From Takakia lepidozioides (taxonomy: Eukaryota; Plantae; Bryophyta): a DNA stretch of 7,000 nucleotides. This document shows, one piece after another, positions 1 through 7,000 of this stretch; position 1 is the stretch's first letter; each line of letters begins with the position of its first letter. Location: positions 1-7,000 of the forward strand of contig JAKLZA010000114.1 of assembly GCA_030704615.1 (NCBI GenBank), given 5' to 3'. The position numbers and the translations under genes are program-made. Below the pieces are notes generated by a model. That model had not been told where the DNA came from and ran no database searches. It saw only the letters and a list, made by a program, of their open reading frames with translations.

Positions 1-58
1 CCTCAAACAGGTGCCCCTGAAGACCAAATTTTGCACCCAGAAACATTGAAATGTTCAG
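1..58 (+). repeat. Partial copy of the ~116-bp tandem unit; the array probably continues upstream of the window
   Basis: 1-58 aligns ungapped to 922-979 with 54/58 identity and stops at the first 3 nt (CAG) of the unit's palindrome. Confidence 0.9.
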
Positions 59-160
59 GTTTCCTTTGTCCACGCGCCAGTTTTGGCCTCTCTCCGCTGA
101 TGGCATGGATGCCACCTGACGCTTACAGAGGTCGAACAAGGAGGTTCGACATGGCGGGAT

Positions 161-621
161 TGAAAATGCGGTGCGCATTTCATATTGGGGATGGTCGTTG
201 TTCGAACTGCAGGCCCATCAGCAAAATTGGCACCGCATTCTTTTTAAAAAAGGTCGATGACGGACTGAATGCGCGCCGGCATTTCCAGAACGGACTTCGC
301 AATTTGTCCATTTGCAGACCCTCTCTCGGAAATGCGGTCCACGCATTCCATCGCGCTGGTCGGAAATGTCACACTTTTCGAAGTGTTGTACGCAACTGCG
401 GCACCTGCATTCCTTTGTCCAAAAGAAGTTTCCATTGCCAAGCTGGAAATGCGTCGCCGCATTCCAATGCCAACTCGGTTTCTGATCAATTTATAACCCG
501 TGTTGGTTTTCGTGTACCTGGACGGAATGATGCACCGCATTTTCTTTGTCCCACATGGAAATGCGGTCCGCATTTCGATGCCGACATGGAATGCGGTGCC
601 GGATTTCCATGTCCGACATGG
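161..621. repeat. Cluster of short imperfect palindromes, consensus GGAAATGCG-(3-5 nt)-CGCATT(T)CC
   Basis: Units at 164-180, 230-240 (half), 267-286, 328-349, 397-413, 444-466, 524-543, 558-576 (perfect 9-bp arms GAAATGCGG-T-CCGCATTTC) and 583-613 (GACATGGAA...TTCCATGTC). Eight exact ATGCGG/CCGCAT hexamers start at 166, 233, 332, 457, 535, 561, 568 and 591. Confidence 0.85.
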
Positions 622-873
622 GCGTTACTCTGGTATATTCTTGACACATGACTCACATACCGGTTACTCTGCTTATTCACATCCCGACAGACACATTGTA
701 GAAATGAGACATCAAATTGTAAACAGTGCAATTCCGACAGTTATTCAACACAATGAAACACCAGTCATACAGAAGTGAGGTACGATTGGTTTATTGATCG
801 GACACGATGTCTCACATTTCCAACTGCAGACAAAACTATCCCTTCCTCCTTCTACATGGGCTTCACCAAGTCG

Positions 874-1765
874 GTGCGTTGCCGCACACTGTTTGGGCTG
901 ACATTGAAGGGTTCATTTCATCCTCAAACTGGTGCCCCTGAAGTCCAAATTTTGCACCCTGAAACATTGAAGTGTTCAGCTCAAATAGTATGCGTTGCCG
1001 CACACTGTTTAAGCTGAGAGTGTAGGGTTCATTTCATCCTCAGATAGGTGCCCCTGGAGTTCAAATTTTCACCACCCTGAAACATTGAAATGTTCAGCTC
1101 AAACAGTGTGCGTTGCCGCACACTGTTTGAGCTGGCAGTGCAGGGTTCATTCCATCCTCAGAAAGGTACCCATGAAGTCCAGATTTTGCACCCTTAAACA
1201 TTGAATTGTTCAACTCAAACAGTGTGCGTTGCCGCACACTGTTTGAGCTGGCATTGCAGGGTTCACTCCATCCTCAGAAAGGTACCCATGAAGTCCAAAT
1301 TTTGCACCCTTAAACATTGAAATGTTCAGCTCAAACAGTGTGCGTTGCCGCACACTGTTTGAGCTGGCAGTGCAGGGTTCATTCCATCCTCAGAAAGGTG
1401 CCCCTGAAGTCCAGATTTTGCACCGAAACATTGAAATGTTCAGCTCAAACAGTGTGCGGCGCCGCACACTGTTTGGGCTGGCTGGGAAGGGTTCATTTCA
1501 CCTGTAGATAACTGACTCCAAGGCCAAATTTTGCAACCTACAACATTGAAAAGATCTGCTCAAACAGTGTGCGTTGCCGCACACTGTTTGAGCTGGCAGT
1601 GCGGGTTCATTTCATCCTCAGAAAGGTGTCGTTGAAGGAAGAATTTTGCACCCTTAAACAGTGACATGTGGAGCTCAAACAGTGTGCGGCAACGCACACT
1701 ATTTGAGCTGCCGCTGAATGGTTCTTTCTTTCACAAATACCTGCCATTGAAAGCCGAATTCTTCA
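874..1765 (+). repeat. Tandem array of 8 units of ~116 bp, each with a 40-bp palindrome (18-bp arms, 4-nt core)
   Basis: The equivalent position recurs at 881, 997, 1115, 1231, 1347, 1461, 1576 and 1691 (periods 116, 118, 116, 116, 114, 115, 115). Palindrome CAGCTCAAACAGTGTGCG-TTGC-CGCACACTGTTTGAGCTG lies at 874-900 (partial), 977-1016, 1095-1134, 1211-1250, 1327-1366, 1441-1480, 1556-1595 and 1671-1710. The ~76-bp linkers are also homologous to each other. Confidence 0.97.
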
Positions 1766-2770
1766 CAAATATGGTCCTGTAGATTTTACCTTTTTCCTAG
1801 CTACTCGAGAAGACTCCCCATTTGCCGGGGACCCTTTCCGCTTCGGGCTGCTCTCTTCGCCGACTATGTAGGTGAGCCTCTCCCCCTTCCTCTTTCCCGT
1901 GGTCAGATCGTTCGTGAGGCCAGTGTCAACATCTTCCTCCATGTCGTCTGTCTCTCCCTCAGACGCAGTGTCCTCCTCGCCTGTTCCTGGAACTATGGTG
2001 GGTTGTTGTTTTCTTCTCCAGATTCCTGCTCCTCCATCGCCACACTTTCCTGTATTCCCTCTTCTTCCTTCCTTTTTCCTCTTCCTCCACTCTTTCCATC
2101 CTCATTCTATATCTAGCTCTATTCCTGTTTCTAGAACTCGTGAAGTATAATGACTTCCTTCTCTTCTCTCTCCTCCGCTGGAAACAAGGGCTCCCCACGA
2201 TGCCCCTGGAGCTCTTTAGTTTGACGTTTGCAACAAGTGCTGGTATCGCATGTAACAAAATAAAAATGGACGTTGTCACCGTATTGGATGCGGGTGTTGA
2301 TATTGTGTGCGAACGGAATTCATCCATTTTGTCGTCTTTGTATTACCCAGCTAATAAAGCGCTGAAGAAAAAGAACATCCGTTGCATGCATTTGCGATAT
2401 ATGTCAGATGTACTTCGCCGCCTGCCAATACATGGCGGCCTCCTTGCCTCTTTCAAATTCGAATGCGCCGTAGAAATGTAGTGCTTTTTAATTCCGAGCA
2501 GTTCTTCCAGATTCGCAATAATTGTTATGCTTCACATATGCATCCACGTGTGTTGTACTGCATGCCCTGTGGTTTTTTTTTATGCCGTGACCGTCCCATG
2601 GGGTCATTCGGTATATAAGGATTGTGTCGGATATGACCATGTGTTGCCACACATTCGTGCGAGGTATCTCTTGAGTGTCGGTGTTTGTTCTGTGCTATTC
2701 TGGCGCACAACAATCTCATTAGCAATCGGATCTTCCTGTTTACTGCTCTCCAGGGTTGTTGCCGTCATTT
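1763..2770 (-). pseudogene. Possible frameshifted accessory ORF, divergent from the transposase, with acidic and KRK-rich C-terminus
   Basis: The minus strand is strongly purine-rich at 1800-2180. A stop-free frame from ~2100 to TGA at 1765-1763 ends EEDTASEGETDDMEEDVDTGLTNDLTTGKRKGERLTYIVGEESSPKRKGSPANGESSRVARKKVKSTGPYL*. Protein-like fragments occur in shifting frames upstream (QESVAMEEQESGEENNNP; PFAHNINTRIQYGDNVHFYFVTCDTSTCCKRQ; ALHFYGAFEFERGKEAAMYWQAAKYI). No homolog recognised; the 5' boundary is a guess. Confidence 0.35.
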
Positions 2771-3429
2771 CATAAGGATGGTTTCATGTCATTTTCAGGG
2801 TTTGTTTTCCATCCAAAAACAGTACGGCTTCTTGTGGCTCTGTCTTTCAAAACGGTTTTTCTGGTTGGTGGGAGGTGAAGGTGCACGTCATCCCTACATC
2901 CTTGGCATGCATCGCCGGCAGCCTTTGGTTTGTGCTACCCCTTTGACCTCAGTTTGGTTCTGGGGTGGTATTTCCACTGTCGATAATTACTGGCTCTCAT
3001 TCGGGATTCCGTTCTGAATCGGCAGTTTCGTTCAGTGCTGCTGGAAACATGTCGAGGGAGCGAGATGCATCTCGCTCGATTCCATTCAATGCAGGTACTC
3101 TTCCACTGACTGCCACTGCAGACGACGATGGGTATGCAGTTGTTCATGAGGATGAGCTGGTTACAGTGTTCCCGCGCTGAGTTGGTTTTCTCTGCTTGTT
3201 CAGAAAGAGGTGTATGACGAGGATGGGGAATTTGGATTCTGGGCACTTGGAGAAACCCTTGGTTGGCGAGTGTGGAAGGAAGTGGAGAGTCCTTCCAGGA
3301 ACATACCGTGTCCTTGGAAAAGAGAGAAGACAATCAGCAGGATCAGTCGTTACCCCTGGCACTGCAGCATCGGTCGTGCAACAGAAGGGCACAGTTCCTG
3401 TGAAACAAGAGGTGAGCACATCACTACCT

Positions 3430-3660
3430 TCGTTACTCTTTCGGACTCGTCCTCGGAGGATGTTTCTGAGATTCCTCCGCCAGTGCAAACTCCCTTATTG
3501 GATGATGACGAATTGCAAGAGATAACAAGTGTCATTCCAAAATTGAAAGCCCTCGCAGGTGTGCCTGGGTGCAAGAGCGAGCTACGTTTTGTTGATTGGG
3601 AGTCCCTTCCAGTGCAACGGGTTCAATACGTGCCAGCTCAGTTTGATGGGGACATCTTTT
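3430..3660 (+). CDS. Transposase N-terminal segment preceding the GCM-like domain
   Basis: FVTLSDSSSEDVSEIPPP...KLKALAGVPGCKSELRFVDWESLPVQRVQYVPAQFDGDIF runs directly into the next ORF with a 4-nt overlap (TTGA 3659-3662), indicating a frameshift. Confidence 0.65.
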
Positions 3661-5068
3661 GAGCTCAACCCTCCCACGTCTCCATGTGGACTGGTGGGCT
3701 CTGCAGGGCATGGACAAGAAACATGACGGACATCCTTGGTGCAGGACAAAAACTTCGAACATCCATAACGACATTGGCTTGAAATTTCGGAGGTCGGTTT
3801 GCGTTGGGCATTGCAAGTGCCTGAATATTTCTTGCCCTCGGCTGAGAAACAGCGCTCAGCCAAACGAAAGTGAGTGGGAAGGTGTGCCCCTGAATCCTTT
3901 CACCCCAGGGCTTGCACCTCCCAAGACCAATACTTTTGTGTGCAGGTTCTGCAAACTTTCCCCGTCCTGTGTTTCTGTTTGCCACGCTCGTATGTATCAG
4001 GTGGCACATCGATGCAAGACAATGACTTGTGCCTGCATTCATATGGGTGCACACGAGCATCCTGTGTCCAAAGGGAGTTGCAGGGATAGCGTGGACATCG
4101 CTAGAAATCTACTGAAGCAAGAGTTCCATAATGCCCCTTCTGCAACACCTTCTGCTATAGCGCTTGCAGCTAGCAAGGCATTCCTGGAAAAACACATACT
4201 GGGTGAAGGGGATGCGACACAGCCAATGCTGGATGCAGATTCCCTTGAGGCAGTCATGGACCATTTCTCCGTGTTGAGCTCTCCCAATATTCGAAACCAG
4301 GTGAATGCACTCAGAATGGGCACAGGCACTGCTGGATTCATGGACAACATTATGGACCTCAAACGGAGGAGTCGCTATGAATTCATTCAAAACAGTATCT
4401 TCCCTGGCCAGGGCTCGTCCAAAGTGTATTTGTTCAAGATGTCCGCTGTGGGCCAAGGCAGTGGTGTGAGCATTGTCCGCCGAATGCAACCTGGAGGAGA
4501 TTTGGCTAAATGTTGGTTAATGTTTGATCACTGCAAACGGGTGAAGGGTTGGACAACCATGGCGTGCCATGTGTATGATCCAGCGTACCAGCGTGTGCTC
4601 TCCATAGCAATTTGTGATATGCAGTCGGAGGACACTGAATCCCAGATGCTCATGTGGAATTCCCTCCTGACCGTCATGCAGCGCAATGGAATACAGAACA
4701 CAAATTTTGCGGGCTTCATGGCTGATAGTGCACAGGCAAATTTCAATGCAGTGCGGCGCGTGTTTGGTTCTGGGGATCCTAAGGTCCCCATGGAAAATAG
4801 GGAGCGCACATGCCTCTTCCATTGGAGTCAATCTCTGGCACGTCATACAAAGCGCTGCATTCGCCCTGACCTTCAGTTGGAGCATAGAAGGCTCTGTCTG
4901 AAGTACAAGAATGCCACCTCAATGGGAGAAGCTGAGAGCACTTACCAGGCAATCCGGGCTTGGTGGTTCTCCGCTGGTGCTGCTACAGGTATCCACCTGA
5001 AGGAGTTGGAGGACTGGTTGGTTTTCTGGCACTTCAGGTACAGACAGTGGGGAGCTTTCATGACGACG
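3659..5068 (+). CDS. Transposase exon part: GCM-like domain (~3725-4063) and DDE core with first two Asp and CxxH
   Basis: WCRTKTSNIHN...RRSVCVGHCKC...CRFC...C...GAHEHP parallels the GCM pattern WAMRNTNNHN..KKSCLGVVVC...CPNC...C...GEHDHP. MULE motifs: WLMFD (D 4526-4528), GFMADSAQANFNAVRRVF (D 4724-4726) and RTCLFHW (CxxH 4811-4822). Confidence 0.88.
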
Positions 5069-5205
5069 GTAAGCCTCACAAGTTTTCCTTAAACACAAAT
5101 TGCACTTTGCATCGTGCCTGTTCATTTGGGGTTGTTCGATTGTCACTTGAAGAACCTCTACCATTTCTTTTCCTTCCTCACATTTCCATGCAATGCCTCC
5201 TGCAG
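5069..5205 (+). other. Spliceosomal GT-AG intron, 137 bp, phase 0
   Basis: Donor ACG|GTAAGC at 5069, pyrimidine tract 5161-5187, branch-like CTCAC near 5177 and acceptor TGCAG|GAC at 5205. Removing it joins the two ORFs in frame (WGAFMTT|DMSLEDLADMPSCNLAE) and removes the TAA at 5090-5092. Confidence 0.88.
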
Positions 5206-6026
5206 GACATGTCCTTGGAGGACTTGGCCGACATGCCATCGTGTAATTTGGCAGAGACTGTTCACAATGCCTGGATGCAACAGTCTACCAAAGCAGGTCG
5301 TGACTTGTATGTGGCCACTGCTGATGACATGGTGCGGGCACTTACACAACAAACCAGGTACCGCAATTTTCTGATGGGACGGGGTGGAGGGAAGGGCCCC
5401 GATTCGACTTTGTTGATGCTAAGGGCTGCGAGTAGGTCCGGAGACCCGTCAAAGATGGCCAGAGCTCTAAACAGGTGCACTGAAGGCTCCCCTCTGCAAT
5501 CCAGGCTCCCCCATTTGGAAGGCGAGGAAAGATTTGGATCATGCAAAAGGAAATTAAACACTCTTCCAGGGTCAGATGGAGATTCCCATAGGCCAGACAG
5601 GGTCAATTTCTCTGTGCCAAAGGTGTCTCCAGTGCAGACTAAGTCCTGTGCCGGCCCCTTCCCAGGTGGGTCCTCCTCCTGTGGAGCAGGTGCAGAACAT
5701 GCAAGCATAGCAGCGGAAATCCCATTGGAGGAGGTGGTGGCCATGGTGCAGGAATCTGATTGCATTGATAGTGACTGGCATATAGAACGCACCCCACCAG
5801 GATCTAGAGTGGCTTGCATGGCAATTCGGACCCCCTCTTTCAAGAAATGCAAATCAAAAATATGCAAAGGCTCCAGGGGGACTCCAGCTCCAACATTCAC
5901 AGGGTTGTTCCGACCTTACCATAGTGGGGAGTCAAAAGAACACAAGTTTTGGTTCTGCCCAGACGATATGGCACGATGCGTGAAGGGAACAGTTCGTCCT
6001 TCCGTGATAATGAAGCCCCCTCCCCC
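5206..6026 (+). CDS. Transposase second exon part: catalytic Glu and Cys4 module
   Basis: SCNLAETVHNAW (E 5254-5256) fits the MULE N-x-x-E-x-x-[HN]-N motif for the third catalytic residue. Cys cluster ACMA..KKCKSKI...FWFCPDDMARC lies at ~5776-5990. Confidence 0.82.
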
Positions 6027-6617
6027 GCAATTTGGCCTGTGAAAATTGGGACATCGCTGTCCTCAACCGAGATAAGCATGCTGGAGGAGGGAGGGTTTTG
6101 TCTTGCACGGTCCCGGGTGGTGCCCTTATGCACTGTCGGCACAGATGTGCCACATGCTCCGACAATGCCTCCACCCGGTGCCGACTCCCACCCAACAAAA
6201 AGAGATGGAAAAACAGTGCGCCGTGTTGCTTCGGGTGCAGATCACGAATGCAAGATGGAATCGGCTAGAATTTTGCAGGCTACGGTGACTCGTATCACCG
6301 AAGTCCCTTCCCCGGGGTATGGACGGATTTACACAGTGCTGTCAATTGGCTCAGTTCTTCATGCCAAAGAATATCAAGTTACCATTGGGAATTTCCCATC
6401 GTGCACTTGTCCGGATTTTGTAACGATGCGTGAGGGCGCTCTCGGCATGAGAGGGAAGTGGGTCCCCTGCAAGCATCAATATTACATATACCTTGTAATT
6501 ATGTGTTGCGACGGTAAGAGAGACCAATTCATTCACCAAGCCACACTAGGCTACGGAGAAGTCATCACCCTTCTGCAGCGGGACACCTCGCGTAGAGCTC
6601 CGCCAACTTCTCTTTGA
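6024..6617 (+). CDS. Transposase C-terminal segment with SWIM zinc finger
   Basis: YQVTIGNFPSCTCPDF...WVPCKHQYYIY fits SWIM CxC-xn-CxH (C 6402, C 6408, C 6468, H 6474). It is reached by a frameshift in the C-rich run CCCCCTCCCCC at 6016-6026 (KPPP-P-AIWPVKIG). Confidence 0.85.
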   Translation, partial: PAIWPVKIGTSLSSTEISMLEEGGFCLARSRVVPLCTVGTDVPHAPTMPPPGADSHPTKRDGKTVRRVASGADHECKMESARILQATVTRITEVPSPGYGRIYTVLSIGSVLHAKEYQVTIGNFPSCTCPDFVTMREGALGMRGKWVPCKHQYYIYLVIMCCDGKRDQFIHQATLGYGEVITLLQRDTSRRAPPTSL

Positions 6618-6762
6618 ACACATACGAGCCATGCCCGCTTCCCATGCTGGTTTCCAGGTTGCCGTGTGAAGACTTTTCATTTTATGACAAACATATACAT
6701 TTCGTTCACTTGTGAGGGCAAATGCACTTGCGATTCATTGTAAGCGTCTCTCTGTGAATTGA

Positions 6763-6768
6763 AATAAA
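6763..6768 (+). promoter_or_regulatory. Possible polyadenylation signal AATAAA
   Basis: Hexamer ~145 nt after the transposase stop in an AT-richer segment; position is the only support. Confidence 0.25.
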
Positions 6769-7000
6769 CTGTGTCAATCATTCTGAGCTCAAATCTGCCA
6801 TGTTTACATATTCCTCTTTTTTGGCACGCATTGCAGACATGGTGCATGGTGGCCTCCTTTGTTTTGTCCACGGTAATAGGCCCTCTTCCTGCAATCCTCG
6901 CCTATAGGACCTGCTTCTCCAGCAGATTCATGCCGCTCACGCTTCAAAGCTTGAACGTGAGCTCAGCTCCCAGGCTCACGGGGCTGGGCTCACGCCGTAG

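What the first reader, a model, noticed from the sequence alone, without database searches (positions are those of the whole stretch)
3725..4063. GCM-like two-zinc domain fused to a DDE transposase in an apparently non-animal genome
Seen: W-x4-TSNIHN...RRSVCVGHCKC-x4-C...CRFC...C...HMGAHEHP. Established: GCM1 has WAMRNTNNHN..KKSCLGVVVC...CPNC..LIPC...KGEHDHP, including the inserted second Zn ribbon. Typical plant MULEs instead carry MuDR, FAR1 or WRKY-type fingers. Inference: this lineage is close to the transposon source of GCM transcription factors, or a poorly described MULE clade. The match is by eye.
Basis: partly seen in the sequence, partly recalled or inferred. Interest (0 to 1): 0.72.

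Follow-up and report, generated by a model that had tools for sequence, protein, structure and literature searches.

The report
Liverwort-type Mutator transposase, GCM-like finger
This is a broken copy of a multi-copy, likely Mutator-type jumping gene, probably from a moss or liverwort, whose transposase carries a predicted WRKY-type DNA-binding domain with four extra conserved cysteines that likely bind a second zinc where the animal GCM factors have theirs; GCM-plus-transposase elements are already published from fungi, and a special kinship of this family to GCM is not shown.

Summary
The motifs are at the stated place and are conserved in a large unnamed family (773 clusters at 50% identity). 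The four named members found are liverwort proteins. The domain sits at the front of a Mutator-type DDE transposase: the best fold match is ISCth4 (IS256 family), with D, D, CxxH, W, E and a weak SWIM match. This copy has several frameshifts; other copies in the same organism lack them. The predicted fold is WRKY-GCM1, with a CCHH core and a conserved four-Cys insert between the two core cysteines, as in GCM. The GCM-specific claim is only half met. Foldseek ranks GCM (1odh) first for an intact homolog (E 0.006, TM 0.44), but VIA ties it with WRKY, and the window's own model matches WRKY1 best. No member scanned hit Pfam GCM, and GCM's own loop after the second core cysteine is absent. GCM plus DDE is already published as MuDRF (Cantu 2011; fungi, Naegleria), and this scan has reported MuDRF elements on other DNA. 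What looks new is a divergent land-plant clade that Pfam misses. 'Close to the source of GCM' is unsupported and could not be tested by phylogeny.

The parts
3725..4063 (+). Predicted core site C31 (3800), C91 (3980), H115 (4052), H117 (4058). Predicted inserted site C37 (3818), C42 (3833), C78 (3941), C81 (3950). Extra conserved C87 (3968) and H111 (4040).
   Evidence: conservation, coordinates; models, fold matches. Ligand pairing is inferred from topology; no coordinates or metal were seen.
3522..3724 (+). N-terminal extension of the same domain (helix, then YxP..FDG..FELPP strands), cut by a frameshift at about 3657
   Evidence: tblastn with P0003, P0004 and P0008; +TG at 3657 in other copies; in the intact-homolog model 1odh aligns from model residue 3
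3070..3521 (+). N-terminal region of the transposase, broken by several frameshifts (about 3070, 3086, 3178-3187, 3225)
4064..5068 (+). Helical linker and RNase H-like catalytic domain: D273 (4526), D339 (4724), C368-x2-H371 (4811-4822), W447 (5048)
   Evidence: Conservation D273 94/98, D339 96/97, C368 89/94, H371 90/94, W447 60/61; ISCth4 Foldseek E 4e-4, VIA Z 10.2, rmsd 4.1, 176 aligned
5069..5205 (+). GT..AG intron (inferred)
   Evidence: Splice dinucleotides in the sequence; the uninterrupted homolog P0349 aligns up to 5038 and again from 5203
5206..5745 (+). Exon 2 with the third catalytic residue E (5254-5256, NLAETVH)
   Evidence: E in 38 of 59 loci aligned there, K in 17, Q in 3, gap in 1
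5746..6030 (+). Conserved domain with four invariant Cys; PARP-finger-like by eye only; frameshift at about 6021
   Evidence: 4 Cys invariant in 8 rows; no relevant Pfam or PDB match
6372..6480 (+). SWIM zinc finger (CTC...CKH); stop at 6615-6617
   Evidence: PF04434 E 0.036, 14.1 bits, below the 19.6 cut-off
6935..7000 (+). GCTCAC repeats of the element's right end; the terminus (..GCGTCGTTG in relatives) likely lies just beyond 7000

Best explanation
This is a frameshifted copy of a multi-copy, likely cut-and-paste transposon of the Mutator (MuDR/IS256) superfamily from a likely bryophyte genome, and its N-terminal domain is predicted to be a WRKY-GCM1 fold with a second, four-cysteine zinc site inserted between the core cysteines, which likely binds the element's own ends. 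In intact copies the beta-sheet of this domain would enter the major groove of subterminal repeats (the GCTCAC repeats at the right end are the candidate). The D-D-E RNase H core would then excise the element through flanking-DNA hairpins and join it to a target, as shown for Muta1. The family is best treated as a distinct land-plant clade built like MuDRF (GCM-type domain plus DDE) but too divergent for Pfam GCM. Shown: motifs, conservation, broken frames, many copies. Predicted: folds. Inferred: zinc binding, DNA binding, the binding site, the transposition chemistry and the host group.
For: DDE core: ISCth4 is the top match by Foldseek and VIA (Z 10.2). D, D, C(2)H 29 residues after the second D, W and E are conserved, the layout described for MULEs (PMC5499845 passages). 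Domain order WRKY-GCM1, catalytic, SWIM is the typical MULE order (PMC1702500). Domain: intact homolog P0003 (58% identical over the 122 aa) folds at pLDDT 94.6. Foldseek ranks 1odh first, E 5.6e-3, prob 0.99, with NAC next at E 0.14. VIA aligns 133 of 157 GCM residues, against 78 for WRKY33. The Atlas first hit for P0003 is a Mucoromycota cluster with PF03615 in 12% of members, score 0.90. Many copies: 8742 and 8429 contig records from two runs of one sample lay on 1750-7000, and variants lacking the window's frameshifts are common. GCTCAC occurs 22 times in 30 non-redundant loci 500-1000 bp after SWIM, 9 and 4 times in the two bins just before, and 0-5 times in every other bin.
Against: No Pfam GCM match in the window, in 67 of the 120 listed homologs that were scanned, in 26 domain stretches or in 33 of the 150 listed representatives. 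Profiles do not find 1odh at E<=10. The GCM match is weak: TM 0.35/0.44, VIA Z 5.6 at rmsd 4.9, tied with WRKY33 (5.6) and yeast YER067W (5.8). In the window's own 453-aa model the domain matches AtWRKY1 at Z 7.3, rmsd 2.2, 61 of 61 residues, and 1odh is not among the 50 rows shown (a list filled by the helical part). The Atlas hit shares 160 of 256 features, under the 170 typical of true family matches. Pfam Transposase_mut hits only 2 of 67 homologs, weakly (E 0.034 and 0.18). No terminal inverted repeat shared by the family was found in 50 loci of 6.5 kb or more and no target-site duplication was located.
Confidence: 0.8

Rival explanations
1. The domain is a true, very divergent GCM domain: the element is a land-plant branch of MuDRF, and its zinc ribbon is homologous to that of animal GCM.
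For: The four-Cys insert sits between the two core Cys as in GCM (legend). 1odh is top by Foldseek and aligns over both subdomains. The Atlas neighbours are Mucoromycota clusters, one with some PF03615. A PARP-finger-like four-Cys domain follows the DDE core, and unchecked earlier notes report such a finger in MuDRF transposases.
Against: No sequence-level link. GCM's own insert after the second core Cys is absent: 23 residues separate C91 and H115. Two extra invariant Cys/His residues. The PARP-finger likeness was not confirmed.
Confidence: 0.45
2. The domain is a WRKY-type transposase finger that gained a four-Cys zinc module in the inter-cysteine loop independently of GCM, so the likeness is convergent.
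For: The loop between the core Cys is a known hot spot for inserts and the Zn ribbon is called evolutionarily mobile. The core superposes best on AtWRKY1 (Z 7.3, rmsd 2.2). H-x-G-x-H-x-H and the 23-residue spacing resemble the classical WRKY end (recalled consensus).
Against: GCM aligns over 133 residues, including regions outside the WRKY core, and is the only Foldseek hit with E below 0.1.
Confidence: 0.4
3. It is a KDZ-type (CxC) or other non-Mutator transposase, or a domesticated host gene.
For: Cys-rich N-terminus; no terminal inverted repeats found.
Against: No CxC or KDZ Pfam match. The best fold match is an IS256-family transposase. Many divergent and decayed copies argue against a single host gene.
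Confidence: 0.07

Closest known systems
MuDRF elements (MuDR superfamily; Repbase MuDRF-1_PSt etc.; Cantu et al. 2011, PMC3164196; passages and Figure S2 legend read, alignment picture not visible)
   Same: [quoted passage not shown]
   Different: Reported there from Basidiomycota and Naegleria, not plants. Its domain was aligned to GCM by sequence, whereas this family is invisible to Pfam GCM. The 9-bp duplication reported for MuDRF could not be checked here.
GCM transcription-factor DNA-binding domain (mouse GCM1, PDB 1odh; Pfam PF03615)
   Same: WRKY-GCM1 fold, CCHH core, four-Cys module between the core cysteines, N-terminal extension; top Foldseek hit for the intact homolog.
   Different: 9-11% identity in the structural alignments, TM below 0.5, no Pfam match, no loop after the second core Cys, extra invariant C87 and H111; fused to a transposase.
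MULE transposases with WRKY-GCM1 domains (insert-containing FAR1 type and HxC MuDR type; Babu et al. 2006, PMC1702500; parts 1 and 4, passages and figure legends read)
   Same: Domain order zinc finger, DDE, SWIM; HxH end; an insert between the core cysteines.
   Different: Their inserts are described as basic loops of 20-70 residues without a second zinc site; no FAR1 or MuDR Pfam match here.
ISCth4 (IS256 family) and Aedes Muta1 transposases
   Same: RNase H fold with a helical insertion, D-D-E, C(2)H and W.
   Different: A different N-terminal DNA-binding domain (Muta1 has FLYWCH); 10-13% identity to ISCth4.

Membership tests
Mutator/MULE superfamily | DDE triad in an RNase H-like fold closest to IS256/Mutator | tested here: met
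Mutator/MULE superfamily | (C/D)(2)H motif 15-45 residues after the second D, and W before the E (shared with hAT) | tested here: met
   C368-x2-H371 lies 29 residues after D339; W447 in 60 of 61 rows (definition)
Mutator/MULE superfamily | N-terminal WRKY-GCM1 zinc domain and C-terminal SWIM | tested here: met
   SWIM match is below Pfam's cut-off
Mutator/MULE superfamily | Terminal inverted repeats | tested here: inconclusive
   None shared by the family in 50 loci; the copies are decayed and left ends may lie outside the loci
Mutator/MULE superfamily | 8-10 bp target-site duplication | not testable with these tools
   No left end located; no genome held
GCM domain family | CCHH core of the WRKY-GCM1 fold | tested here: met
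   C31, C91, H115, H117 conserved; fold matches
GCM domain family | Four-Cys zinc ribbon between the two core cysteines | tested here: met
   C37, C42, C78, C81 conserved at that position; met in sequence only, metal binding not shown
GCM domain family | Match to Pfam GCM (PF03615) or to the 1odh sequence | tested here: not met
   0 of 8 window pieces, 0 of 67, 0 of 26, 0 of 33 proteins; profiles miss 1odh at E<=10
GCM domain family | GCM-specific loop immediately after the second core cysteine | tested here: not met
   Feature; here 23 residues separate C91 and H115, and the model starts a strand three residues after that Cys
GCM domain family | Structure closer to GCM than to WRKY | tested here: inconclusive
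   Foldseek favours 1odh; VIA ties them; the window model favours WRKY1
GCM domain family | Binds ATGCGGGT | not testable with these tools
   Motif; needs a binding assay
MuDRF | GCM domain and DDE domain in one protein | tested here: inconclusive
   Architecture matches; GCM identity of the domain is unresolved (rows above)
MuDRF | Clusters with MuDRF in a DDE-core tree; 9-bp duplication | not testable with these tools
   No MuDRF or GCM sequence could be fetched
Classical WRKY transcription factors | [quoted passage not shown] | tested here: not met
   The window reads WCRTKT; 59 residues lie between C31 and C91
KDZ (CxC) transposases | CxC and KDZ profile matches | tested here: not met
   No such Pfam family listed; that Pfam holds these models is recalled

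The most novel reading that the evidence does not exclude
This is a large, so far unnamed land-plant Mutator clade whose DNA-binding domain is the structural intermediate that Babu et al. postulated: a classical WRKY-like core that already carries the GCM zinc ribbon but not GCM's later loop. It would be sister to fungal MuDRF and animal GCM, dating the ribbon insertion to transposons older than the plant-opisthokont split or showing transfer from fungi into early land plants. The elements may lack terminal inverted repeats and carry a second, opposite-strand gene.
Probability: 0.3. Interest if true: 0.65.

Novelty: new variant of a known kind. Interest (0 to 1): 0.42.

Why it matters
The origin of GCM and WRKY factors from Mutator transposases is an accepted idea, and GCM-bearing transposases are known in fungi and a protist, so the headline is not new. 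This family adds a plant branch that Pfam misses both as a zinc finger and as a transposase, and that can be abundant in its host. It gives a concrete set of sequences for asking whether the second zinc site arose once or twice, and it would improve repeat annotation of bryophyte genomes.

Tried and rejected
Pfam and PDB sequence searches for GCM, FAR1, FLYWCH, WRKY or CxC: nothing relevant. Atlas search with the window's own domain: no usable hit. Homolog searches for longer or full-length forms found none (word-based, weak evidence). No relative in viral contigs and no BFVD fold match at E<=0.001. Attempts to obtain GCM or MuDRF sequences for a profile comparison and a tree failed: the Cantu Figure S2 alignment is a picture, Cohen 2003 is not held, the loci are not in held genomes, and a GCM motif scan of viral contigs gave 0 matches. 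Idea that the ATGCGG cluster at 166-596 is a GCM-like binding array of this element: 9 matches in the window against 3.2 expected, 8 of them in that stretch. Rejected as unsupported, because 30 related loci show no such cluster and copies of 59-873 continue into other sequence at 873. No family-wide inverted repeat and no left end mirroring the right end. No RNA holder listed, which says nothing about expression. Cluster look-ups gave organism names for 4 of 30 proteins. No complex prediction was run. Literature: 10 searches. MuDRF appears in one relevant paper; no paper held bryophyte + DNA transposon + Mutator + GCM1; Dupeyron 2019 has no GCM or moss terms. Repbase and subscription journals were not searchable, so the family may be deposited there.

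Full report
Observation. The frame 3647-5092(+) contains the motifs as quoted. Counting from Met 3710, eight Cys/His residues (C31, C37, C42, C78, C81, C91, H115, H117) are kept in 90-94 of 95 aligned rows, and so are C87 and H111. The rows are the window and the 94 homologs that cover the domain, out of 120 listed from 233 hits. A profile of the domain alone finds 773 clusters at 50% identity with E<=0.001, 411 with E<=1e-10. In 26 hand-picked distant members the ten residues remain almost invariant and H34 does not. Cluster look-ups named 4 of 30 proteins: three from Riccia sorocarpa and one from Calypogeia fissa. With the intron and a plant-metagenome holder, a bryophyte host is likely but not shown.

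The gene. Homologs place the start near 3070 and show frame breaks near 3180 and 3660. Contigs of the same organism commonly carry the indels that the window lacks, for example +TG at 3657 in depth 379 of 738 (X1) and 43,116 of 61,788 (X2), and +C at 6021. This copy is therefore broken while the family has many copies; contig depth is not a copy number. After the zinc domain come a helical linker and an RNase H-like core with D273, D339, C368-x2-H371 and W447. A GT..AG intron at 5069-5205 is bridged by the uninterrupted homolog P0349, and exon 2 holds the E at 5254 (E in 38 of 59 loci). A four-Cys domain (5746-6030) and a weak SWIM match follow. The AlphaFold model of 3710-5068 (pLDDT 88) matches ISCth4 of the IS256 family best: Foldseek E 4e-4 and VIA Z 10.2 against 6.5 for Hermes. 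In the wide VIA search ISCth4 (Z 9.0) is second to an 85-residue mannosidase match (Z 9.4). These are the marks listed for MULE transposases (passages of PMC5499845), although C(2)H and W are shared with hAT.

The zinc domain. The window's frameshift cuts the N-terminal extension, so I folded the intact homolog P0003 (58% identical over the domain; pLDDT 94.6). Foldseek ranks the GCM-DNA structure 1odh first (E 5.6e-3, probability 0.99, TM 0.35/0.44, 11% identity), then a NAC domain at E 0.14. VIA over 48,161 chains gives a tie: YER067W Z 5.8, WRKY33 Z 5.6 (78 aligned, rmsd 3.6) and GCM Z 5.6 (133 aligned, rmsd 4.9), then WRKY1 and AFT2. For the window's own model, residues 1-120 match AtWRKY1 at Z 7.3, rmsd 2.2, and 1odh is not among the 50 rows shown. 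Pfam finds no GCM, FAR1, FLYWCH, WRKY or CxC family in the window, in 67 homologs, in 26 domain stretches or in 33 distant representatives, and family profiles miss 1odh at E<=10. The ESM Atlas first hit for P0003 is a Mucoromycota cluster with PF03615 in 12% of members (0.90, 160 shared features; a lead only), ahead of FAR1 at 0.82. Babu et al. define GCM by a zinc ribbon between the two core cysteines and by a second insert right after the second cysteine. This family has four conserved cysteines at the first position and lacks the second insert. So the fold is WRKY-GCM1, the second site is likely, and membership of the GCM family is not established.

Mechanism. By analogy with GCM and WRKY the beta-sheet would read the major groove of the element's ends, and the inserted module would add backbone contacts. 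The catalytic core would cut through flanking hairpins and join the ends to a target as Muta1 does. All of this is inferred. Relatives end 500-1000 bp after SWIM in GCTCAC repeats (22 hits in 30 loci) followed by a TAGCGTCGTTG-like terminus (motif found in 18 of 42 loci, 2 probably spurious). The window stops in such repeats at 7000. No shared inverted repeat or left end was found, so the duplication test is open.

Prior art. Cantu et al. 2011 describe MuDRF: a distant MuDR branch with a GCM domain and a DDE domain, in Basidiomycota and Naegleria, with 9-bp duplications (passages and the Figure S2 legend, not the alignment). Babu et al. 2006 already proposed that GCM arose by entry of a zinc ribbon into an insert-containing, transposase-linked domain. 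Earlier notes of this scan report MuDRF elements in other genomes (unchecked). My ten literature searches found no account of such a domain in plant transposases (most directly), but Repbase and subscription journals were out of reach.

Verdict. A real feature and a sound lead by eye, but the architecture is known and the 'source of GCM' reading is unsupported. What remains is a large, divergent plant clade that Pfam misses, standing between WRKY and GCM in its features. Whether its second zinc site is homologous to GCM's (about 0.45) or convergent (about 0.4) is open. New variant of a known kind; interest 0.42.

Noticed in passing
window 874-1728 (partial copy at 1-58): Tandem array of a 116-bp unit, 7.2 copies, each with a 40-bp near-perfect palindrome; highly repeated in the organism's runs. 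Whether it belongs to the transposon is not known.
   Followed up: partly
window 59-873: A separate high-copy repeat that seems to interrupt the 116-bp array, with 8 ATGCGG sites, several in short palindromes, at 166-596; other copies diverge at 873.
   Followed up: partly
L070:4479-5135, L074:1144-1700, also L026, L027, L029, L046, L051, L071, L077: Nine of 80 loci carry a decayed second gene on the opposite strand 4-8 kb upstream of the transposase, with a WDGNHR-like motif (ParB/sulfiredoxin-like by recall). No Pfam or PDB support; not detected in window 1-3100.
   Followed up: partly
window 5746-6030: Conserved domain with four invariant cysteines between the catalytic E and SWIM; resembles a PARP-type finger by eye, unconfirmed.
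   Followed up: partly
window 1763-2340 (- strand): Low-complexity, Lys/Arg/Glu-rich broken frames that may be the start of an opposite-strand gene; covered by the same runs at lower depth; no match to the loci.
   Followed up: partly
window 3968 and 4040: C87 and H111 are as invariant as the eight predicted ligands; H111 sits where classical WRKY has an aromatic residue (recalled). A third metal site is possible but untested.
   Followed up: no
L009-L080: Many metagenome copies are heavily decayed, with stops and E-to-K changes at the catalytic residue, consistent with C-to-T mutation of methylated DNA.
   Followed up: no
window 5509 (run X5): A contig's loose end reads like the family's right terminus, suggesting a nested insertion in another copy.
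   Followed up: no
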